A DNA stretch of 64,000 nucleotides, taken from IMG/VR virus record IMGVR_UViG_3300028844_004552, positions 9,629 through 73,628 of that record; one strand, written 5' to 3'. Positions 3,592 to 62,627 of this stretch are shown piece after piece (the first letter of the stretch is position 1; each line of letters starts with the position of its first letter). The notes beneath the pieces are model-generated. The model did no database searches. It saw only the letters and a list, made by a program, of their open reading frames with translations, and was not told the origin of the DNA. Position numbers and translations under genes: made by a program. The stretch comes from a virus.

Positions 3592-6500
3592 ATGTCAAAA
3601 TCAATTAGGATAAGAACAACACCAAATGGTAGTGATTCAAATATAAAAGTTAAAATCGAACAAGATTTTGATTTCATTGAAATATTATCATTGAAAATTT
3701 CTCAAGCAGAGGCGTATAGTCGTTTCTGTTCGGATTATGGTGTGGTCGTTGGTAGAGTTATTATCAATGACGGTTTCGGTGTTCCTAATGCTAAGGTTTC
3801 GGTATTTGTTCCAATAGAAGAGGAAGATGAATTAGATAGTGAAATTGCTGGTCTATACCCATACAAAGTTTTAGGGGATAAAAATAGTGATGGGATTAGA
3901 TATAACCTTTTACAGAAGGACCCAAAACCTAATGAGAATTGCTTCACACCAGCTGGTTCATTTCCATCTAAAAGAGAAGTGATTGACAATGATACGGTAC
4001 TTGAAGTTTATGACAAGTATTATAAATACACCACCACAACCAACGAAGCTGGTGATTTCATGTTATTTGGTGTTCCAGTTGGTTCACATACACTTAATAT
4101 GGATTGTGATTTATCAGACATTGGTATTGCATCACAAAGACCTTATGATTATATTTCACAAGGTGAGTCAATAAAGAGGTTTGAGTCTACAACAAAATTT
4201 AAGTCCGATAAGGATTTAGATAAGATGATTCAAATCAAAAGTTATAGGAAAGGTATCAATGTACAACCATTTTGGGGTGATAAAGACCAATGTGATATTG
4301 GTATTACAAGAAGTGACTTTGATATCAAGAAAAAAATAATACCATCAGCAATATTTGTTGGGAGTTTATTCTCAGATTCTGAAAAGAATTCAATAAACAA
4401 AAACTGTAGACCTAGAAAAGATTTAGGTAGACTTTGTGAAACAAACGCATCAGAAGGTACCGTAGAGATGATTAGGAAGACGTTAGACGGTACTATTGAA
4501 CGTTTTGATGTTGAGGGTGGTCGAGTAATAGATGATTCGGGAGGATGGGCGTATCAAGTTCCTATGAACTTAGATTATATGGTAACCAATGAATTTGGTG
4601 AACTTGTACCATCGGATGACCCTAACAAGGGAATACCAACAAAGGCTAGAGTTAGATTTAGAATTGGTATGGATGTAACTGGTGACGAGGGTAGACTTAG
4701 AACTAGTGCTAAATATTTAGTTCCACATAACCCACCAAATTCTTCTAATATAGATTACAACTTCAATGAGAATACTAGTGATGAACACTTTAGAGATTTT
4801 CATTGGAATAAAATATATACAGTATCTAATTTTATACCTAGAGTTCAATCAACTTGTCCAGGCGGTAAGTGTGCTGACAATAGGAATATTACAGGTATAA
4901 AGGATGTTGATGATTGTAGTGGTGACAAGACACCATTCCCATATAATAGGGTTGATACAGATTTCAATCCACTGTTTTTAATATTATGTATTATATTAAA
5001 TATAATCATTTTCATAGTATGGATGATTAATGCAATTGTTATAAATCTTATAAATGTTGTCCTAATTATTATCAATGCTGTATTATTGGTTATATGTGAA
5101 ATTGTCTTTTTTATATCTAAAATTGTCTGTGCTTTAAAACACTTAACGGATGCGGATAAACGTGCTGAATGTAGAGAGAAGGGTTGTATGGGTGATTGTG
5201 ATGATGAAGAATGTAAGGATTGTGAATGTAAGAATATTCTTAGTTATGTACCATGTATTGTAATGGAATGTGATGATAAGAATTGGGCACCAGGCTGCAA
5301 GTGTGATTACATTGAACCATCATCTATAGTAGTTGGTTCGAATGATTATGGTAATACAGATACAGGTGCTATTGGTTGTTGGGCTTCAATGACCAACGCT
5401 GAAAATCCTAAGAATCCAATCACTCACTGGAGTGGTGTTAATTATAATTCAGATAATTGTAGTCACCCAGGTCATGATAGACTTGATGCTGGGCTATCAG
5501 ATTGTTACGCAATACAATTAGCAGAAGCATTAAATATGTTTGAATTGGACTTTTATAATGATTGGATTAATGGTACATTATATGCGTATTTATTAAAATA
5601 CAAGAAGAAAAAGAATGGTAAGCAAAAATTCTGTGATTCTGATTGTGACACATCAGATTCGGATAATAATTGCGATAAGAGTTGGTTTGTTGACACTTGT
5701 ACTAGTGAAGGTAGTGATAGGATTGATACCAAGAAAATAATTAAAAAGCAAATTAATGAAGGTCTTATAAAACAAGTAACAACGACTAGACCAGACGGAA
5801 AGGAAGATGAGGTATTGTATTATGCACCTTATACTAAACACCACGATTTTAAAATGTTTGCAACAGAACTTGTACATTTAGGTTCTATATTTGATTGTGA
5901 TTGGCAAGGAATTCCTAAGATACAATCCTACTTATTACCAACATCATATATTAGACCACCTTACACTGCTGAATATTTAAATGATGGGACAACAAAGGTC
6001 ACATGTGGAATGACATCAACTGGTACTCAAGGTAGTGGTGGATTATTTTTTGATATTGATTGTATTGGACTTAAGGTTGGTGGTAGATGTAAAAACTTTA
6101 AGAGAATTTGTGAAATTGGTGTTGAATTACCATCAGATAATTGTTGGGTATTAAATGAATCCATTACAAATCCATATGGGTCTAAATTTAGAGATATATT
6201 CTATGCACTTAATAAGGATGATGGTGCAAATAAATTGAATTCATGGCCTGTTGGTGGAATACCAGTAGGTGGTTATGGTACTGCATTTGAAACAGCTAGT
6301 GGTGAAGGTTTTGCTTCTGATAGTTTAAATGCAGAATATGTTCAATTTAGAGGTAACTATATCTCTACTGACACTGATACAGCAAATGTAGACCAACCTG
6401 TGGAATCTTATTCACAATCTAAGAATTCATTTTATTTCTATTTTGGTACCGAGCCTGGTAAAAGTGGACTAGAAACTATGAACAATAGATTCTTCGCTGA

Positions 6501-48628: not shown

Positions 48629-50089
48629 ATGTCAAAATTGATTGATGCAATCAGAACTAACGATTCCCTTACAGAAAATGGGATGACTACTAACTCAACA
48701 TCATTAAATATGTGTGTAGACATGTTCTTCACCATAGGTGCTATGAGAGGTCAAGATAAGACTCGTCTTATAAACACATTCACGAAAGCTTACGCAGAAG
48801 ATGCACTTACAGCAACAAAGTTGTTGTTCTGGGCTAGAGACGTACGTGGTGGTGCTGGAGAGAGACAAATCTTTAAGGATATCATTACTTACTTAGCAAG
48901 TTCTAAGCACAAGGAAGTTCTTAGAAAGAACTTATCACTTATCTCTGAATTCGGGAGATGGGATGACCTTCTAGTATTGGTTGGTACTCCATTGGAGACT
49001 GACGCATTAAATCTTATTGCTAATGCACTTAACGAAGGGAACGGACTTTGTGCTAAGTGGATGCCAAGACCTAACGGTGGAAACAGAGAAAATAAGAGAT
49101 GGGCTTCTGCTCTTAGAAAGCATATGGACCTTACACCAAAGGCTTATAGAACATTGTTAGTTGAAAACACTAACGTTGTTGAAACGCTTATGTGTTCAAA
49201 GGACTTCGGTTCTATCGAGTACGGTAAGATTCCATCAAAGGCTATGTCTGATTACATGAAAGCATTCGGTAAGAATGATTACGAAAGATTCACAATGTAT
49301 CTTAATGCAGTTGACAATGGTGAGGAAAAAATTAACGCTGGTGCGGTATACCCATATGATATTGTTAAGAACATGAGAAACGGTTCTAAGAATGGTGCTG
49401 ACACACAATGGAATGCGTTACCTAACTACATGGAAGGTAGCAACGAGAGAATATTACCTCTAGTTGATGTATCTGGTTCAATGCAAACTCCAGCTGGTGG
49501 AAACTCCAATATATCATGTATGGATGTGGCAATCTCATTGGGATTATACATGTCAGAGAGAAATGTTGGACCATTCAAGGATGCGTTCATTACATTCCAC
49601 TCCAATCCAACATTGGAAGTGGTTAAGGGTACACTTTCTGAAAGATATACTCAAATGCATAGCTCTAAATGGGGTGGTTCTACTAACATAGAAGCCGCAT
49701 TCGGATTGATGTTAAATAAGGCAATAGCAAACAACGTTTCTGCTGATGAAATGCCAACAATGATGATTATATTGTCAGATATGGAATTTGACTCTGCAAC
49801 AAGAGCGGGATGGGGTGAATCACACCCAAGATGGAATGCTTCGGCTCAATCTATGATTGAGGATAAGTATGCAGAAGCTGGGTACGTGATGCCTAAGATT
49901 GTATATTGGAACCTTCAATCTCGTGGAGATAAGAACAAGCCAGTTCAGTTCGATAAAAACGGAACAGCATTGGTGTCTGGATTCAGTCCAGCATTATTGA
50001 CTAGTTTGTTGGCTGGTAAGGACATGACTCCTTACAGTATGATGATGAACGTAATTAGCTCTGCTCGTTACGAGGATATAACTATATAA
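48629..50089 (+). CDS. DUF2828-family protein (Ro60/TROVE-like helical domain + vWA domain)
   Basis: TENG, LFWARDVRGGAGER, EFGRWDDL, AKWMPR, LYPY-like VYPYDIV, MIDAS DVSGSM, GGSTN, ILSDMEFD, VYWNL, SGFSP. Confidence 0.88.
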   Translation: MSKLIDAIRTNDSLTENGMTTNSTSLNMCVDMFFTIGAMRGQDKTRLINTFTKAYAEDALTATKLLFWARDVRGGAGERQIFKDIITYLASSKHKEVLRKNLSLISEFGRWDDLLVLVGTPLETDALNLIANALNEGNGLCAKWMPRPNGGNRENKRWASALRKHMDLTPKAYRTLLVENTNVVETLMCSKDFGSIEYGKIPSKAMSDYMKAFGKNDYERFTMYLNAVDNGEEKINAGAVYPYDIVKNMRNGSKNGADTQWNALPNYMEGSNERILPLVDVSGSMQTPAGGNSNISCMDVAISLGLYMSERNVGPFKDAFITFHSNPTLEVVKGTLSERYTQMHSSKWGGSTNIEAAFGLMLNKAIANNVSADEMPTMMIILSDMEFDSATRAGWGESHPRWNASAQSMIEDKYAEAGYVMPKIVYWNLQSRGDKNKPVQFDKNGTALVSGFSPALLTSLLAGKDMTPYSMMMNVISSARYEDITI

Positions 50090-56270: not shown

Positions 56271-56301
56271 TTGACATTAGATAAAACTTTTAGTATATTT
56301 G
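56271..56301 (+). promoter_or_regulatory. Promoter for tmRNA (TTGACA-N14-TAGTATATTTG), followed by boxA-like GTTCTTTAA at 56322
   Basis: Conserved motif and spacing. Confidence 0.85.
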
Positions 56302-56335: not shown

Positions 56336-56703
56336 GGGGTTGACTGGCATTTGATTGTTTATTAAAACATGATTTGTAAGCATGCACAGCGAAGTGGACA
56401 AGCTGTTAAAACTGAGACACAAATTTAACTGGAAACTTAACTGTATCCGAAAATTTCCTTGACAACGCATCGATAGGTGTGCTTGACGGAGAGATGGCTG
56501 TAGCCTAAAACAGCACATGGTACTGGTATCGTACCGAACTTCAATGATAAACGAAGTAAACATATATCCAAGATAACTTTTATTAGAAACACCGACTTGT
56601 AAAATCGGGAACTAGTAAACTTTGCTAGAATTAGAAACTAGATAAGCATGTAGAAAACACTTTATGTGTAAGCAAGACGAGAGTTCGAATCTCTCCAACT
56701 CCA
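56336..56703 (+). ncRNA. ssrA: tmRNA, tag (A)GNLTVSENFLDNASIGVLDGEMAVA*
   Basis: Acceptor stem GGGGTTG/CAACTCC with G3.U70, GAC-gagag-TTCGAAT-ctctc T-arm, GCATG helix-2 pair, taact-GGA resume context at 56431, stop at 56506-56508; CCA not encoded. Confidence 0.92.
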
Positions 56704-56742
56704 CGCTAACGCTCCACACCCACAAGTTGGGAGTGAAATATT

Positions 56743-57224: not shown

Positions 57225-57332
57225 AATTTATATTTTTTAGTTAAACTTATTATCTTATACTAATAAATATCATTTTAATTGAAAATAAAGTCTAATTGTT
57301 GACAAATTTATTAAAAATGTTATATTTAAGGT

Positions 57333-57566: not shown

Positions 57567-57595
57567 ATTAATTTCAAAGAAAAATGAAATTTTAC

Positions 57596-57626
57596 TTGAC
57601 AAGTGAGTATATATGTAGTATATTTG
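57596..57626 (+). promoter_or_regulatory. Promoter of small-RNA cluster (TTGACA-N14-TAGTATATTTG)
   Basis: Conserved motif; boxA-like GTTCATTGAA at ~57646; about 1 kb without ORFs follows. Confidence 0.85.
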
Positions 57627-57666
57627 TATTCTATTAAGCGAAATAGTTCATTGAAAATTAAGATAT

Positions 57667-57800
57667 AGTCAAAAAGGATAATTACGGCAAACCGTAAAAC
57701 AAAATCTAAAGGAAGTGGTTAAGTATAGGTTCCACATAAAATAAACCGCCATGGTGTCTAGACCCATGTAAAAAAAACACTAAACCATTATTCTGTGACT
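57667..57800 (+). ncRNA. Candidate Y-RNA-like ncRNA B
   Basis: agtca/tgact outer stem, aggataat/attattct-g inner stem, tacggcaa motif. Confidence 0.6.
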
Positions 57801-57808
57801 TAAAAAAA

Positions 57809-57889
57809 TTGATTAAGGTCTAAGGGTCCTAAGTGTGTAACAGCAATGTTCGAACTCCATCTAGAATGGTGACCTCTGACCTTAATCAA
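57809..57889 (+). ncRNA. Candidate Y-RNA-like ncRNA C
   Basis: 12-bp perfect stem ttgattaaggtc/gaccttaatcaa, inner agggtc/gacctct-g, aacagcaa motif. Confidence 0.65.
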
Positions 57890-57894
57890 CAACT

Positions 57895-57999
57895 GGGGAG
57901 ATAGTATAAGAGAGAATACTATTTCATAGAGAACCTCCTTCTTTATGAAATATTCGAGTACGACTTCGGTAAGTCAAGGTTCAAGTCCTAGTCTCCCCA
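57895..57999 (+). ncRNA. tRNA-like RNA with 13-bp anticodon-position hairpin and CCTCC loop
   Basis: GGGGAGA/TCTCCCC-A acceptor, GTAT/ATAC D-arm, GG-TTCAAGT-CC T-arm; no canonical anticodon loop. Confidence 0.75.
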
Positions 58000-58004
58000 C
58001 TAAA

Positions 58005-58058
58005 AGAAAGGATTCAGCAATTAACTTTTTTCAAAAAAAAAAAAACAGTCCCTTTCTG
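58005..58058 (+). ncRNA. Candidate minimal Y-RNA-like ncRNA D
   Basis: agaaagg/cctttct-g stem, attcagcaa motif, U/A homopolymer loop. Confidence 0.55.
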
Positions 58059-58067
58059 ACAACATTA

Positions 58068-58163
58068 CGTTGAAGTATTTAAATGATTTCAGCGAATCAT
58101 ACTCCACCTATCGTCATGGTAACGATAGCTAATAGTGTAAGTCTATTGTGGGGTACTTTAGCG
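58068..58163 (+). ncRNA. Structured RNA: outer stem enclosing a mini-tRNA-like module (YrlA-like layout)
   Basis: cgttgaagta/tactttagcg stem; inner actccac/gtggggt, ctatcgt/acgatag hairpin and aatag-TGTAAGT-ctatt T-arm-like hairpin. Confidence 0.55.
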
Positions 58164-58202
58164 GTTAGCACTATACGATACCGAGGGATAGGAAGTGCAA
58201 AT

Positions 58203-58252
58203 GGGAGTATAAGATGTAAGTCTTATTGGTAGAGCGATACTATCTACTCCCA
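58203..58252 (+). ncRNA. 50-nt mini-tRNA-like RNA
   Basis: GGGAGTA/TACTCCC-A acceptor-like stem, one hairpin, then 5-bp arm with 7-nt loop AGCGATA. Confidence 0.6.
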
Positions 58253-58257
58253 CATAT

Positions 58258-58330
58258 TGCGGGGTGGAGCAGTTGGTAGCTCGCAAGGCTCATAACCTTG
58301 AGGTCGTCCGTTCGAGTCGGGCTCCCGCTA
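58258..58330 (+). tRNA. tRNA-Met(CAT), initiator type
   Basis: Full cloverleaf, loop CTCATAA, 1:72 mismatch (T:T), A11:T24 pair; CCA not encoded. Confidence 0.93.
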
Positions 58331-58335
58331 CAAAT

Positions 58336-58384
58336 GGAGATGCATGCATTAGGCATGATTAAGGAGCAATATCTTACATCTCCA
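58336..58384 (+). ncRNA. 49-nt mini-tRNA-like RNA
   Basis: GGAGATG/CATCTCC-A stem, catgc/gcatg hairpin, 5-bp arm with 7-nt loop AGCAATA. Confidence 0.6.
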
Positions 58385-58391
58385 CTAAACG

Positions 58392-58424
58392 AGGGGAAGC
58401 GAAAGCTTCCCCTTAGATTTTTTT
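58392..58424 (+). terminator. GNRA hairpin/terminator
   Basis: aggggaagc-gaaa-gcttcccct then T-tract after a short spacer. Confidence 0.65.
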
Positions 58425-58429
58425 GGTAC

Positions 58430-58489
58430 TGGGTTATGAATCAAAATGACAGATGTGGTTGAAACGATAGTCCACGATATCATAACCCA
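58430..58489 (+). ncRNA. Unassigned hairpin RNA
   Basis: 10-bp stem tgggttatga/tcataaccca with internal gtgg/ccac hairpin. Confidence 0.4.
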
Positions 58490-58628
58490 ACAATTTTTTA
58501 CCATTTTTTGTATAAAAATAGGACACACTCGTTGCCCGATTAGGGTGATAGAGATACTTAAACGCTAACCCTTGACGGTTGGCGTTCTTAGTTTTGCACC
58601 GTATTATATTTTTTAGTATATTTGCATC

Positions 58629-59267
58629 ATGAATAGAAAATTTTTGATACTAGGGAATATGCGACATGGTAAGGATACGTTCGCAGAATTGATGGGTGAA
58701 TATTACGGGCTTAAATTCCAATCATCATCACAAGCAGCTGCTGACATATTCATTTACGATACACTTAAAGACAAGTACAACTATTCAACACCAGCAGAGT
58801 GTTTCGAAGACCGAGAGGGTCATAGGCAAGAATGGTATGAGTTAATCCTTGATTATAACAAGGATGACCGAGCAAGACTAGCTAAGGGGATTCTTGAACG
58901 TGCGGATTGTTATGTTGGTATGAGAGACCATGGGGAGATTACTGAATGTATGAATCAAGGACTATTCGACCTAATTATTTGGGTTGACGCATCTGGAAGA
59001 CTTCCACTCGAACCATCCACCTCCTTCAACATTGATATGAGTTGTGCTGATATAATTATTGAGAACAATGGAACTCTAGATGAGTTTAAGGGTAAGGTTA
59101 AAAGGATTGGAAGTATTCTAATGAATCACGAACCAACAACCATTAATGAGACTGATTTTTGTAATTGTGAATACCCTAAGCCCAATGTAATGGTATTGGA
59201 TAATGAGAAGTTTATAATCTGTATTGGGTGTAATAAAGAAATTATTGCAAGTTTAGAAAAAAAGTAG
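58629..59267 (+). CDS. Deoxynucleoside monophosphate kinase-like P-loop protein
   Basis: LILGNMRHGKDT, VGMR...E, IIWVD, ADIIIENNGTL; C-terminal Cys pairs. Confidence 0.75.
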   Translation: MNRKFLILGNMRHGKDTFAELMGEYYGLKFQSSSQAAADIFIYDTLKDKYNYSTPAECFEDREGHRQEWYELILDYNKDDRARLAKGILERADCYVGMRDHGEITECMNQGLFDLIIWVDASGRLPLEPSTSFNIDMSCADIIIENNGTLDEFKGKVKRIGSILMNHEPTTINETDFCNCEYPKPNVMVLDNEKFIICIGCNKEIIASLEKK

Positions 59268-61432: not shown

Positions 61433-61502
61433 TTTGGATACTAAGATTTAAATGACTATATTTGTTATGATGAAAGAATTTATTAGAAATAGAATTAGAG
61501 AA
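60674..61502 (+). repeat. 33-bp exact direct repeat at two gene starts (60674-60706, 61470-61502)
   Basis: atgaaagaatttattagaaatagaattagagaa = MKEFIRNRIRE. Confidence 0.92.
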
Positions 61503-62627
61503 GGACTTATCACGGAGAACCGAGTTAAGTTTAACCTTACAATACCAAGTGATATACTTGAGATTAAAGACGTGTTTGTTAAAAACGGTTTTAAATTGTA
61601 TGTTGTTGGTGGTGCTGTAAGAGATGCCCTTTTAGGTAAAACACCTAAGGATTGGGACCTCGCAACTGATGCTAACCCAGACCAAGTGGAAGCTATAATG
61701 GCGAAGGGTGGTTTCAAGACTATCCCAACTGGTAAGGCATTCGGAGTAATCAATGTATTCAGTGATACTGATGAATATGAAATCGCAACATTCAGAAAAG
61801 ATATAGGTTCTGGTAGAAGACCAGATGCAGTTGAGTTTACGACTATTGACCAAGATGTTAAGAGACGTGACCTTACAATCAATGCACTTTTCTTTGATAT
61901 AAATACAAATGAGATAGTTGACCTTGTAGGTGGTATCTCAGACCTTAAGAAAGGTATTGTGAGAACTGTTGGCGCACCAGAGGAAAGATTTGAAGAAGAT
62001 AGACTTAGAATCCTTAGAGCAATTAGATTTGCTGGTAGATTTGGTAGTGAATTGGAACCAAACGTTGATGCGGCACTTAAGAAGGATGCTAGTCTTGATG
62101 GTATTAGTCCAGAGAGAATCAGAGATGAATTCTTAAAGGGTGTTAAGACAACAAAGACAATCAACCAATTCTTAGGGTTATTAGATAAGTACAACTTATT
62201 CAATGATGTATTCAAGGGATTAAGTGTATCTAAGAACTTCTTAGAAGAAAGAGACCCAATTGTGCTACTTGCTTGGTTACTTAAGGATAACGACCCACAT
62301 AAGTTAGGTAAGGTACTTAATAAGTTGACTTACTCAAGTACTGAGGTTAAGGCTATCACATTCTTGGTTGCATTACAACAATTCAATAACCCAGAGGATG
62401 TATTTGTATTCAAGAAGCAACAAGTTAACGCTGGGTTATCAGATGAACAAATAAGAAAGTTCGGTAGATTTATCAACTTAGATTCTAAGATGCTTGACGC
62501 ATTTATAGACTTTAGATTGAGTGTAACTGGTGCTGATGCTCAAAAAGAGTTAGGTGTGGAAGCTGGACCAGAAATGGGTAAAGCAATAAAACAACTTGAA
62601 ACGGAGAAGTTTAAGGCAATGTTATAG
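61470..62627 (+). CDS. cca: tRNA nucleotidyltransferase (class II CCA-adding enzyme/poly(A) polymerase family)
   Basis: YVVGGAVRDALLG..PKDWDLATDA, EIATFR, DVKRRDLTINALF, RFEEDRLRILRAIRF, ISPERIRDEF. Confidence 0.92.
   Translation: MKEFIRNRIREGLITENRVKFNLTIPSDILEIKDVFVKNGFKLYVVGGAVRDALLGKTPKDWDLATDANPDQVEAIMAKGGFKTIPTGKAFGVINVFSDTDEYEIATFRKDIGSGRRPDAVEFTTIDQDVKRRDLTINALFFDINTNEIVDLVGGISDLKKGIVRTVGAPEERFEEDRLRILRAIRFAGRFGSELEPNVDAALKKDASLDGISPERIRDEFLKGVKTTKTINQFLGLLDKYNLFNDVFKGLSVSKNFLEERDPIVLLAWLLKDNDPHKLGKVLNKLTYSSTEVKAITFLVALQQFNNPEDVFVFKKQQVNAGLSDEQIRKFGRFINLDSKMLDAFIDFRLSVTGADAQKELGVEAGPEMGKAIKQLETEKFKAML

What the first reader, a model, noticed from the sequence alone, without database searches (positions are those of the whole stretch)
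57895..57999. tRNA scaffold whose anticodon arm is replaced by a 13-bp hairpin presenting an anti-Shine-Dalgarno sequence
Seen: acceptor stem, D-arm and T-loop are present. The anticodon arm is ATTTCATAGAGAA-CCTCC-TTCTTTATGAAAT with no U33 or purine 37, followed by an enlarged variable region. The apex reads ACCTCCTT. Known: ACCUCCUU is the 16S rRNA anti-SD core; Bacteroidota ribosomes keep their anti-SD occluded (bS21/bS18/bS6), and SD use is largely limited to a few genes such as rpsU in Flavobacteriales. Inference: a non-decoding tRNA mimic that may pair with rare SD-containing mRNAs, titrate anti-SD-binding proteins, or decoy anticodon nucleases. An 8-nt match could be chance.
Basis: partly seen in the sequence, partly recalled or inferred. 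Interest (0 to 1): 0.75.

Follow-up and report, generated by a model that had tools for sequence, protein, structure and literature searches.

The report
Non-decoding tRNA-shaped RNA of jumbo phages
A marine jumbo phage carries a conserved tRNA-shaped RNA that cannot decode, and its ribosome-like CCUCC loop is not kept in relatives, so it is probably a protein-binding tRNA mimic rather than an anti-Shine-Dalgarno decoy.

Summary
The sequence features are real. At 57895-57999 there is a 7-bp acceptor stem, a T-arm, a discriminator A and a 13-bp hairpin with a CCUCC loop. Rfam scores it as tRNA at 31.1 bits (cut-off 29), and default ARAGORN misses it.

I found seven homologs in IMG/VR and metagenome contigs, all in the same non-coding operon of about 350-kb phages. 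The apex is not conserved: CCUCC in 1 of 8, CCACC in 3, CUCC in 1, UUCG in 2 and GUAA in 1. ACCTCCTT occurs in the window at chance frequency, and 0 of 38 phage genes have an SD-like motif.

Covariation supports the acceptor and T stems. It also supports a long-range helix (nt 10-13 with 64-67) over the canonical D-stem. The hairpin therefore caps an elongated, bulged arm with an invariant internal loop. The "variable arm" takes the anticodon-arm position.

No member can form a 7-nt anticodon loop, and no splicing was seen.

The phage clade encodes a Ro60-like protein (Foldseek), a CCA-adding enzyme, tmRNA and SmpB.

Best reading: a tRNA-mimic RNA, matured like a tRNA, that works by protein binding, possibly Y-RNA-like. 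It is a new variant of a known kind. The function is inferred.

Other notes of this scan on the same window had already proposed the Ro60-like/Y-RNA link.

The parts
57596..57624 (+). Promoter-like site (TTGACA, 17 nt, TATATT) at the head of the non-coding unit that holds the element
   Evidence: 11 of 12 consensus positions. The same type of site sits at 56271 (before the tmRNA) and at 57299. Similar sites precede the homologous operons in L086, L087, L096 and L103 (read by eye).
57811..57893 (+). Long hairpin directly 5' of the element, present or absent between strains
   Evidence: fold of 57800-57895 gives -26.6 kcal/mol, z = -4.2; one contig of an RNA library (X7) and one of a DNA run (X3) join 57810 to 57894 with ATA in between. 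This is a DNA-level variant, not splicing.
57895..57901 (+). Acceptor-stem 5' strand (nt 1-7)
   Evidence: 98.2% of cells are paired across 8 sequences, and pairs 6-112 and 7-111 (alignment columns) covary.
57904..57907 (+). 5' strand of helix 2a (nt 10-13, GTAT). It pairs with 57958-57961 (GTAC). This is the same segment that the tRNA model reads as the D-stem.
   Evidence: all 4 pairs form a standard pair in 8 of 8, and pair 12-70 is AU in 5 and GC in 3. RNAalifold predicts it independently; the canonical D-stem is only 81.3% paired.
57908..57913 (+). Purine-rich 5' side (AAGAGA) of an asymmetric internal loop. Its partner side is GA at 57956-57957. Nearly invariant in the family.
   Evidence: columns 14-22 are identical in 7 of 8 members. 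L046 differs in the first four loop positions but keeps the G-A step. The K-turn-like or tandem G.A reading is my inference and was not tested.
57914..57918 (+). 5' strand of helix 2b (GAATA), pairing with 57951-57955 (TATTC)
   Evidence: pairs 20-66 to 24-62. Pair 23-63 is UA in 5, AU in 2 and AA in 1.
57921..57951 (+). Hairpin 1: 13-bp stem (12 bp if helix 2b forms) with the loop CCTCC at 57934-57938
   Evidence: Homologs have stems of 5 to 13 bp and loops CCACC, CUCC, UUCG or GUAA.
57956..57961 (+). GA of the internal loop plus the 3' strand of helix 2a (GTAC). Part of the invariant block TTCGAG(T/C)AC.
57962..57975 (+). Hairpin 2: a 5-bp stem with loop CGGT. It sits at the anticodon-arm position in the four-way-junction fold.
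   Evidence: In homologs it is a 3-6-bp stub with 3-6-nt loops, and its first pair switches between A-U and U-A (read by eye; these columns are poorly aligned).
57977..57989 (+). T-arm core (AGG, loop TTCAAGT, CCT). The two outer pairs (57975-57976 with 57990-57991) include an A.A mismatch in the window.
   Evidence: 97.5% paired, and 3 of 5 pairs show changes on both sides.
57992..57999 (+). Acceptor-stem 3' strand and discriminator A. The next base is C, and no CCA is encoded.
   Evidence: all 8 members have A then C at this point.
58004..58058 (+). Conserved stem element (TTCAGCAAT ... TCTG) directly 3' of the element
   Evidence: it is present in most of the relatives printed in those calls, with different, complementary stem sequences. 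The MFE alone is not significant (z = -0.5).
58258..58331 (+). tRNA-Met(CAT) of the same unit, with a 1:72 mismatch (initiator-like)
   Evidence: (54.8 bits), and the ARAGORN drawing.
58391..58424 (+). Terminator-like hairpin and T run that closes the unit
48629..50089 (+). Ro60-like protein (DUF2828 + DUF7788), a candidate protein partner of RNAs of the island
   Evidence: Pfam; the five best Foldseek PDB matches are all Ro60/TROVE (E from 8.9e-9 to 2.7e-4); present in 4 of 4 related records, about 8 kb upstream of the island.
61452..62627 (+). CCA-adding / poly(A) polymerase family enzyme
   Evidence: PolyA_pol head domain, 2.9e-37
56336..56706 (+). Phage tmRNA, 1.2 kb upstream
   Evidence: 67.5 bits

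Best explanation
The element is a stable, non-decoding, tRNA-shaped RNA. It belongs to a small family (8 members found) carried by about 350-kb marine jumbo phages.

It is transcribed from a phage promoter as part of a non-coding operon that ends with an initiator-like tRNA-Met. Because it keeps a tRNA-like acceptor stem, T-arm and discriminator, it is most likely cut out by RNase P and 3' processing and given CCA by the phage's own nucleotidyltransferase (inferred).

It cannot read a codon. Its functional surface is most likely the tRNA-like elbow together with the invariant asymmetric internal loop at the base of a long bulged arm. The apex of that arm is the least conserved part. The RNA therefore probably acts by binding a protein that recognises tRNA-like shapes.

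The candidate I favour is the phage's Ro60-like protein. On that reading the RNA would serve as a Y-RNA-like module. Other tRNA-binding proteins remain possible.

What is shown: sequence, fold, family, covariation, context and the Ro60-like fold of the neighbouring gene. What is inferred: processing, CCA addition and the protein partner.
For: - It matches the tRNA model just above the cut-off, but has no 7-nt loop and default ARAGORN rejects it.
- There are 8 family members in different contigs, with R1 scores of 50-107 bits and pairwise identity of 53-90%. Seven of the 8 were in the alignment that R1 was built from, so their scores follow by construction. Only L046 (50 bits) was found independently by the model.
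- All members whose flanks I read sit in the same operon, between the same flanking elements.
- Compensatory changes occur in the acceptor stem, the T stem, helix 2a and helix 2b. The covariation score is 0.336 against 0.141 in shuffles (0 of 500 reach it), and slid controls give 0.038-0.102.
- The block around the internal loop is identical in 7 of 8 members, while the apex differs.
- The next-best covariance-model hits are 67-73-nt cloverleaf RNAs with 4-6-nt loops. Several lie 5-7 nt upstream of tRNA-Met in relatives. True tRNAs score lower.
- A promoter-like site and a terminator-like site bracket the unit.
- No ORF of 60 aa or more lies between 57567 and 58628.
- No member encodes CCA, and a CCA-adding-type enzyme lies 3.5 kb downstream.
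- The five best PDB matches of the DUF2828/DUF7788 protein model are Ro60/TROVE structures, including a phage Ro60. The gene lies about 8 kb upstream of the island in 4 of 4 related records.
- Published precedent: Y RNAs encoded near Ro60 in more than 250 bacteria and phages carry tRNA-like domains; one has a 6-nt 'anticodon' loop; and M. smegmatis YrlA is cut by RNase P and receives CCA (PMC4201824, abstract and passages). A phage Ro60 binds phage Y-like RNAs and host PNPase (PMC12135203, abstract and passages). Some jumbo phages carry a TROVE protein, whose cellular relatives work with a tRNA-like partner (PMC7824862, passage).
Against: - No direct evidence of expression or processing. RNA-library contigs that cover part of the unit have depth 1-7, and a DNA run of the same study gives similar depth (1.6-4.9), so they may be DNA carry-over.
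- The element lacks the Ro-binding motif described for bacterial and phage Y RNAs (GNCGAAN0-1G / CGAA). Its ends form an acceptor stem rather than a Ro-binding stem.
- The Ro60-like gene is about 8 kb away, not adjacent.
- The Ro60-like gene is present in relatives that lack this element. G003 and G004 have no strong R1 hit. Its presence therefore does not track the element.
- The structure model of the Ro60-like protein is only moderately confident (pLDDT 65.8, TM 0.3-0.4).
- Covariation rests on 8 sequences in about 4 lineages. Alignment A6 was fitted to the structure I supplied, although RNAalifold recovered helix 2a on its own.
- In L086 and L103 the single-sequence MFE prefers the local D-stem.
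- The C-rich apex in 5 of 8 members is left unexplained by this reading.
Confidence: 0.5

Rival explanations
1. Anti-Shine-Dalgarno mimic. The apex imitates the 3' tail of 16S rRNA. It either pairs with the rare SD-bearing host mRNAs such as rpsU, or titrates the proteins that hide the anti-SD in Bacteroidota ribosomes.
For: - The window apex reads ACCTCCTT.
- 5 of 8 members have a C-rich loop (CCUCC, CCACC in 3, CUCC) followed by a pyrimidine run, on stems of different sequence.
- The host is probably a Bacteroidota member. This rests on: no SD motifs upstream of genes; a SprB-repeat protein; and -7-type promoter motifs (my reading, with the consensus recalled from knowledge).
- The biology of anti-SD occlusion and the rpsU SD is published (PMC7797042 and PMC9976891, abstracts and passages).
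- The RNA is co-transcribed with an initiator-like tRNA.
Against: - The exact CCUCC occurs in 1 of 8 members. 3 of 8 have unrelated tetraloops (UUCG in 2, GUAA in 1).
- The commonest loop, CCACC, changes the central base. Natural ASD variants change positions 1535/1539.
- The 8-mer occurs at chance frequency in the window.
- 0 of 38 phage genes have SD-like motifs.
- No phage bS21 gene in 0 of 5 records.
- A 5-nt loop closed by a 13-bp stem exposes few bases for pairing.
- No covarying G-rich partner was found in the operons.
Confidence: 0.07
2. Processing punctuation only. The tRNA shape serves as an RNase P / RNase Z cleavage signal that releases the neighbouring small RNAs and tRNA-Met from the polycistronic transcript. 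The excised RNA has no function of its own.
For: - The element sits between other conserved structured elements in one transcription unit.
- Related operons have other tRNA-shaped modules at various positions, some 5-7 nt before tRNA-Met.
- The slot holding this element is empty in many relatives, as expected for a dispensable spacer.
- tRNA-like processing handles are known elsewhere, for example the gammaherpesvirus 68 tRNA-miRNA units and mascRNA (recalled, not read here).
Against: - A cleavage signal needs only the acceptor and T arms. Here the best-conserved block is the internal loop of the long arm (identical in 7 of 8), and the long arm is kept with compensatory changes.
- Operons without the element still carry the flanking RNAs, so it is not needed to release them.
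Confidence: 0.2
3. Decoy for host tRNA-directed defence or toxin enzymes. These could be anticodon nucleases, acceptor-end modifying toxins, or tRNA-sensing defence systems. The RNA soaks them up because it looks like a tRNA but has no cleavable anticodon loop.
For: - It has the tRNA shape without a 7-nt anticodon loop.
- The clade carries many such RNAs beside real tRNAs.
- Phage tRNAs are known to counter tRNA-targeting defences (recalled, no paper read here).
Against: - Nothing in the data points to a particular nuclease.
- Enzymes that recognise the anticodon loop would not bind a molecule that lacks it.
- The invariant internal loop has no counterpart in host tRNAs.
Confidence: 0.12
4. 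A chargeable or decoding tRNA. Either the insert is removed to give an ordinary tRNA, or the RNA is aminoacylated by a synthetase that ignores the anticodon and used off the ribosome.
For:
- The discriminator is A and the T-loop is canonical.
- Under the five-arm reading it resembles a class II tRNA.
Against: - The stem is a continuous helix, with no bulge-helix-bulge and no room for a group I intron.
- L091, L051 and L046 have 4-nt loops on 5-7-bp stems, from which no 7-nt loop can be made.
- No joint within the element appeared in any laid contig. One RNA-library contig is colinear with the DNA over 57894-57975 (weak, contigs only).
- There is no G3.U70 pair.
- Covariation contradicts the five-arm reading.
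Confidence: 0.04

Closest known systems
Bacterial and phage Y RNAs with tRNA-like domains (YrlA, Yrn1; phage phiLo Yrl1/2) that bind Ro60
   Same: - A non-decoding RNA of about 100 nt with tRNA-like T-arm and acceptor-like stem, plus a long bulged stem.
- It is encoded in a genome that also encodes a Ro60-type protein.
- Precedents exist for a wrong-sized 'anticodon' loop and for RNase P cleavage and CCA addition (PMC4201824).
- Phage examples are known (PMC4201824, PMC12135203).
   Different: - In YrlA the 5' and 3' ends close the Ro-binding stem, and the acceptor-like stem is capped by a loop. Here the ends are at the acceptor stem and the long arm is capped, as if circularly permuted.
- The GNCGAA/CGAA motif is absent from the element.
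- The Ro60-like gene is about 8 kb away.
- No Rfam family other than tRNA matched at E up to 10.
Transfer RNA (Rfam RF00005)
   Same: - A 7-bp acceptor stem, a T-arm with a TTCAAGT loop, and a discriminator A.
- The score is just above the gathering threshold.
- It lies in an operon with a real tRNA-Met.
   Different: - No 7-nt anticodon loop, no U33 and no purine 37.
- The D-stem is not conserved and is replaced by a long-range helix.
- There is a 20-bp-class bulged arm.
tRNA-like domain of tmRNA
   Same: - tRNA-like acceptor and T arms joined to a long helix in place of the normal D/anticodon architecture.
- The phage clade encodes tmRNA and SmpB.
   Different: - No G3.U70 alanine identity pair and no mRNA-like part.
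- The junction has four arms.
- No sequence relation to the window's tmRNA.
Viral tRNA-like processing handles (gammaherpesvirus 68 tRNA-miRNA units, mascRNA); recalled, not read here
   Same: A non-aminoacylated tRNA shape inside a longer non-coding transcript, which would attract RNase P and RNase Z.
   Different: - Those are eukaryotic systems.
- Here the most conserved part is an internal loop that a processing signal would not need.

Membership tests
tRNA (decoding) | Acceptor stem of 7 bp, a T-arm with a T-loop, and a discriminator base | tested here: met
   (31.1 bits against a cut-off of 29); both stems are kept, with compensatory changes.
tRNA (decoding) | Anticodon arm of 5 bp with a 7-nt loop (U33, purine 37) | tested here: not met
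   In all 8 members the two hairpins that could stand for it have loops of 3-6 nt in the single-sequence folds. ARAGORN in default mode makes no call.
tRNA (decoding) | Conserved D-stem (10-13 with 22-25) and a G18 G19 D-loop | tested here: not met
   81.3% paired. Pair 12-23 is broken in 3 of 8 and pair 10-25 in 3 of 8. The Rfam alignment shows no GG in the D-loop.
YrlA-type Y RNA | Ro-binding motif GNCGAAN0-1G (CGAA) near the 5' end, in a stem closed by the RNA's two ends | tested here: not met
   The motif is defined in PMC4201824 and PMC12135203. The element has TTCGAG on the 3' side of an internal arm, and its ends form an acceptor stem.
YrlA-type Y RNA | tRNA-like T and D stem-loops | tested here: inconclusive
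   The T-arm is met. A D-like stem-loop is not conserved.
YrlA-type Y RNA | Encoded next to a Ro60 (TROVE) gene | tested here: inconclusive
   The Ro60-like fold is supported by Foldseek. The gene is about 8 kb upstream in the window and in two relatives that carry the element, G001 and G002. It is not adjacent, and it is also present in relatives without this element.
YrlA-type Y RNA | Binding to Ro60 | not testable with these tools
   This needs an EMSA or pull-down.
Anti-SD mimic | CCUCC core conserved at the apex while the stem covaries | tested here: not met
   1 of 8 members has CCUCC. The rest are CCACC in 3, CUCC in 1, UUCG in 2 and GUAA in 1.
Anti-SD mimic | The match is more than chance, and SD-bearing targets exist | tested here: not met
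   2 matches found against 1.98 expected; 0 of 38 genes have GGAG or GAGG upstream. Host targets could not be examined.
tmRNA tRNA-like domain | G3.U70 pair and an mRNA-like reading frame | tested here: not met
   G3 pairs with C. ARAGORN's tmRNA search finds only the tmRNA at 56336.
Intron-containing tRNA | A removable insert (group I or bulge-helix-bulge) that leaves a 7-nt loop | tested here: not met
   The helix is continuous, with no bulges. Homologs with tetraloops cannot yield a 7-nt loop. No joint appears within the element in the laid contigs (weak).

The most novel reading that the evidence does not exclude
The element is a circularly permuted Y RNA. The tRNA-like domain is opened at the acceptor end, so it is matured by RNase P and the phage CCA enzyme. 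The long bulged arm with its invariant internal loop is the docking site for the phage's divergent Ro60-like protein. The C-rich apex would recruit a host exonuclease such as PNPase through its KH/S1 domains. With the other tRNA-shaped and stem RNAs of the island, this would form a modular phage ribonucleoprotein that retargets host RNA decay or surveillance.
Probability: 0.18. Interest if true: 0.7.

Novelty: new variant of a known kind. Interest (0 to 1): 0.45.

Why it matters
Jumbo phages carry many tRNA genes, and automatic annotation discards or mislabels those that do not decode. This work shows that one such oddity is a conserved RNA with its own architecture, not a decayed tRNA.

It sits in an RNA island together with tmRNA, an initiator-like tRNA, other tRNA-shaped RNAs, a CCA-adding enzyme and a Ro60-like protein. 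The family containing that Ro60-like protein is very large in metagenomes: at least 7,997 proteins at E <= 1e-5 among the 8,000 scored.

If the RNA proves to be a partner of that protein, it would give a tractable phage model for Ro60/Y-RNA function. It would also widen the definition of Y RNAs.

The result also removes an attractive but unsupported link to anti-SD occlusion in Bacteroidota.

Tried and rejected
**Searches that led nowhere**
- Similarity searches of 'phages' with 3 kb and with 131 nt around the element found only tRNA-Met relatives and chance hits.
- The exact 22-mer of the 3' half is absent from IMG/VR.
- The 5' 22-mer pattern and the two-block pattern found only one other IMG/VR contig.
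- A third pattern returned that contig plus 6 chance hits.
- Of the 23 metagenome loci, 18 were ordinary tRNAs or chance. I dropped them by eye because they lack the shared 5' block, the TTCGAG(T/C)AC block and a complementary acceptor stem.

**ARAGORN calls with introns allowed**
- I did not accept the 'tRNA-Lys' calls in the window, L086 and L103.
- In L048/L066 the call reduces to a 70-nt tRNA-like RNA.
- The calls in L068 and L017 were not resolved.

**Tests for a pairing partner or associated genes**
- I looked for a G-rich partner that changes with the loop (GGAGG against GGTGG) in five operons and found none.
- Gene searches in 5 records each: bS21 0 of 5, RtcB 0 of 5, SmpB 4 of 5.
- tblastn of the Ro60-like protein against all fetched loci gave nothing, because the flanks were too short.

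**Sequencing runs**
- Marine metagenomes hold the stretch.
- Three metatranscriptome runs hold 14-20% of its words. Their contigs have depth 1-7 and a DNA run of the same study gives similar depth (1.6-4.9). I therefore do not count this as evidence of expression or of ends.
- Parts without cover mean nothing.

**PDB sequence searches with the Ro60-like protein**
- These gave only marginal hits to TROVE proteins: E = 0.66 with the single sequence and 0.15 with the profile. The fold search was needed.

**Literature searches**
- 'DUF2828': 5 papers, none relevant by title.
- 'tRNA-like' + 'jumbo phage' + 'tmRNA': 0 papers.
- A six-term search on phage tRNA-like decoys: nothing relevant by title or abstract.
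- My statement that this family is not in print rests only. Subscription journals are not covered.
They could hold related RNAs.

**Ideas considered and dropped**
- Class II tRNA (Leu/Ser/Tyr) identity. It is untestable here and is contradicted by the covariation-supported fold.
- tRNA-Sec.
- SmpB-binding mini-tmRNA. There is no G3.U70 pair.
- GOLLD/ROOL-type large RNAs. No Rfam hit at E up to 10.
Full report
**1. What is in the sequence**

It has:
- a 7-bp terminal stem (57895-57901 with 57992-57998) followed by an unpaired A;
- a T-arm with loop TTCAAGT;
- a hairpin of 13 pairs (one G.U) capped by CCTCC, so that the apex reads ACCTCCTT (57933-57940);
- a second, small hairpin (57962-57975).

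The Rfam tRNA model matches end to end at 31.1 bits (gathering score 29, E = 0.0025 for 10 kb). It places 48 nt where the 15-nt anticodon arm belongs. ARAGORN in default mode finds only the tmRNA at 56336-56704 and tRNA-Met at 58258-58331. With introns allowed it forces 'tRNA-Lys(ctt)' with a 12-nt intron at an unorthodox position.

The RNA folds at -35.6 kcal/mol, z = -4.2, and 0 of 200 shuffles fold as well.

The 8-mer itself is unremarkable. It occurs twice in the window, against 1.98 expected from shuffles.

**2. Where it lies**

The window is part of a 73.6-kb IMG/VR virus record estimated at 21% complete. Complete relatives are 353-369 kb, two of the three with terminal repeats.

The region 57567-58628 has no ORF of 60 aa or more. 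A promoter-like site at 57596-57624 (11 of 12 positions) and a terminator-like hairpin at 58391-58414 bracket one non-coding unit. That unit holds the element and tRNA-Met.

Nearby genes encode:
- DnaJ and ClpP;
- a CCA-adding-type nucleotidyltransferase;
- a DUF2828+DUF7788 protein;
- a sigma factor, a primase-like protein and an amidase;
- a SprB-repeat protein.

None of 38 gene starts has GGAG or GAGG upstream, and the leaders are A/T-rich. Together with the SprB repeats this fits a Bacteroidota host. That assignment is inferred.

The DNA occurs in marine metagenomes.

**3. Relatives**

The protein encoded just downstream (58629-59267) brought in 13 and then 68 loci from IMG/VR. Among the loci scanned, most show the order tmRNA, non-coding operon, tRNA-Met, then this gene.

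blastn found only one homolog of the element among them, L051 (= L083).

A two-block pattern scanned over metagenome contigs returned 23 loci. Five are clear homologs: L086, L087, L091, L096 and L103. The other 18 are ordinary tRNAs or chance.

A covariance model built from these seven sequences (R1) recovered all of them, as expected since it was built from them. It also found an eighth, more distant member, L046 (50 bits).

There is one copy per record in the two related whole records that carry it, G001 and G002.

Pairwise identities define about four lineages:
- window, L086 and L103 (82-90%);
- L087 and L096 (81%);
- L091 and L051 (81%);
- L046 (53-67% to all others).

In every member with readable flanks the element sits at the same place in the operon, after a conserved A-rich junction. 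In the window, L086 and L096 the TTCAGCA...TCTG stem follows it directly; in L103, L091 and L083 that stem lies further downstream, and in L087 I did not see it. In many relatives that slot is empty or holds an unrelated small structure.

**4.

The apex is not conserved. Loops of hairpin 1, from the sequences and the folds:

| Member | Loop |
|---|---|
| window | CCUCC |
| L086, L087, L096 | CCACC |
| L103 | CUCC |
| L091, L051 | UUCG |
| L046 | GUAA |

Stem length ranges from 5 to 13 bp, and stem sequences differ between lineages.

A C-rich loop does recur in two or three lineages, and my main reading does not explain it. However:
- its variable position is the central base, whereas natural anti-SD variants in Flavobacteriia differ at 1535 and 1539 (PMC7797042, passages);
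- I found no G-rich partner in the operons that changes with it;
- the clade has no bS21 gene (0 of 5 records).

**5. The fold that the family supports**

On the model-based alignment A6, the acceptor stem is 98.2% paired with two covarying pairs. The T stem is 97.5% paired with three covarying pairs. The covariation score is 0.336 against 0.141 in shuffles (0 of 500 reach it), and slid controls give 0.038-0.102.

The canonical D-stem fares worse, at 81.3% paired. Pair 12-23 is broken in the three members that have G at position 12.

Those same three members have C instead of U at the position that pairs with nt 12 in an alternative helix, nt 10-13 with nt 64-67 of the window element. That helix is kept in 8 of 8. 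RNAalifold predicts it without my input. It adds a second helix (nt 20-24 with 57-61), whose middle pair is U-A in 5, A-U in 2 and A.A in 1.

The result is a four-way junction made of:
- the acceptor stem;
- a long arm, built from 4 bp, an asymmetric internal loop of 6 and 2 nt, 5 bp, a 3-nt bulge, and then the 12-13-bp hairpin;
- a stub hairpin;
- the T-arm.

The block around the internal loop is identical in 7 of 8 members. It is the best-conserved part outside the T-loop. Its G-A steps on both strands would allow tandem sheared pairs, as in a kink-turn. That is my inference and was not tested.

Caveats:
- There are eight sequences in about four lineages.
- The key compensatory change may be a single event.
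- A6 was fitted to my structure.
- In L086 and L103 the single-sequence MFE prefers the local D-stem.

**6. It does not decode and is not spliced**

- No member can form a 7-nt loop on either hairpin.
- The helix has no bulge-helix-bulge and no room for a group I intron.
- The laid contigs show no joint within the element.
- The one joint found (57810 to 57894, with ATA between) is also in a DNA run. It removes the upstream hairpin, so it is a strain variant.

**7. A wider class**

Below the eight members, R1's next hits are 67-73-nt cloverleaf RNAs in relatives. They have normal D and T arms, a discriminator A followed by C, and 'anticodon' loops of 4-6 nt. Several lie 5-7 nt upstream of tRNA-Met. 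True tRNAs score lower.

The clade therefore carries a repertoire of non-decoding tRNA-shaped RNAs. The element examined here is an elaborated form of that repertoire.

**8. Candidate partners**

The DUF2828+DUF7788 protein (48629-50089) was modelled from 21 sequences (pLDDT 65.8). Its five best PDB matches are all Ro60/TROVE structures, aligned over about 500 columns at TM 0.3-0.4:

| PDB entry | Protein | E-value |
|---|---|---|
| 9kop | Thermus phage phiLo Ro60 | 8.9e-9 |
| 9l5y (chains A, B) | Thermus phage phiLo Ro60 | 7.1e-7, 1.9e-6 |
| 2nvo | Deinococcus Rsr | 4.5e-6 |
| 9nf8 | human Ro60 | 2.7e-4 |

Sequence searches alone were marginal.

The gene is present in 4 of 4 related records. 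It lies about 8 kb upstream of the island in the window and in the two relatives carrying the element whose positions I worked out. SmpB is present in 4 of 5 records and RtcB in 0 of 5.

Published work shows the following:
- Y RNAs encoded near Ro60 in more than 250 bacteria and phages have tRNA-like domains. One has a 6-nt 'anticodon' loop. One is cut by RNase P and receives CCA (PMC4201824, abstract and passages).
- A phage Ro60 binds phage Y-like RNAs and host PNPase (PMC12135203, abstract and passages).
- Some jumbo phages carry a TROVE protein (PMC7824862, one passage).

Against membership in that family:
- the element lacks the GNCGAA/CGAA motif;
- its ends form the acceptor stem, not a Ro-binding stem;
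- the Ro60-like gene does not track the element's presence.

**9. Verdict**

The anti-SD interpretation is not supported. The 'non-decoding tRNA mimic' part is supported.

The most likely account is a tRNA-shaped RNA that is matured by tRNA enzymes and acts through protein binding at its elbow and internal loop. The Ro60-like protein is the leading but unproven partner.

Rivals are processing punctuation, a decoy for tRNA-directed defence, the anti-SD idea, and a chargeable tRNA.

I had noted the Ro60-like lead myself. Other first-stage notes of this scan on the same window propose the same link, plus related small RNAs. I tested only the protein fold and parts of the promoter and CCA observations.

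I class the element as a new variant of a known kind (tRNA-mimic non-coding RNAs), of moderate interest.

Noticed in passing
L010:621-689 and L014:2596-2664: An HDV-like ribozyme (Rfam RF02682, 46.2 bits, cut-off 44) starts directly after the 3' end of the phage tmRNA in two relatives. This suggests ribozyme-made 3' ends. No such hit follows the window's tmRNA (for the window).
   Followed up: no
L002, L006, L010, L012, L014-L070 (many loci): Most relatives carry a tRNA with anticodon CUA (ARAGORN 'tRNA-Pyl'), an amber suppressor, just downstream of the 212-aa gene. Several also carry tRNA-shaped genes with 6-nt loops ('tRNA-???'). Possible TAG recoding in the clade was not examined.
   Followed up: no
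L048:3286-3354, L027:976-1045 and 755-823, L010:2616-2682, L061:2540-2609, L035:3208-3277, L017:1259-1329, L037:1080-1150: These are cloverleaf RNAs of 67-73 nt with normal acceptor, D and T arms but 4-6-nt 'anticodon' loops. Several sit 5-7 nt upstream of tRNA-Met. They form a wider class of non-decoding tRNA-shaped RNAs in this phage clade.
   Followed up: partly
window 58004-58058, with equivalents in most relatives: A conserved stem element with TTCAGCA(A/T) after the 5' strand and TCTG at the 3' strand. The stem sequence differs but stays complementary between relatives. A related motif with AGCGAAT at about 58085-58099 is seen in the operons that carry the tRNA-like element (in L103 as AGCGAGT; not seen in L087). 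It contains the CGAA of Y-RNA Ro-binding motifs.
   Followed up: partly
window 58332-58390; L083:947-1005; L096 (- strand) after tRNA-Met: A conserved structured element of about 58 nt (a 7-bp outer stem enclosing a hairpin and a 7-nt loop) directly follows tRNA-Met in the window. In L051/L083 it directly follows the tRNA-like element. It has no Rfam match.
   Followed up: no
window 57811-57893: The long hairpin upstream of the element is missing, replaced by ATA, in contigs of one DNA run and one RNA-library run. This is a strain-level indel.
   Followed up: partly
L002:~4140-4250, L006:~4395-4500, L008, L009, L012: A strongly conserved non-coding block of about 100 nt lies upstream of the slot in a subset of relatives. 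It has no Rfam hit at gathering threshold and is absent from the window.
   Followed up: no
window 48629-50089: The Ro60-like DUF2828/DUF7788 protein family is very large and highly conserved in metagenomes: 7,997 of the 8,000 scored candidates have E <= 1e-5, and the 120 listed are 67-92% identical. Almost all carry no name or only 'hypothetical protein'.
   Followed up: partly
window 58258-58331: The tRNA-Met has a mismatch at pair 1:72 in ARAGORN's drawing, as bacterial initiator tRNAs do. It is 81-89% identical to tRNA-Met genes of Lak megaphages.
   Followed up: no
G001:256570-256998, G002:323728-324156, G003:356939-357364, G004:119346-119774: Relatives encode SmpB as well as tmRNA, which makes a complete phage trans-translation pair. 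No bS21 and no RtcB were found.
   Followed up: no
It may be spurious, or it may be a tRNA split by an intron or inserted gene.
   Followed up: no
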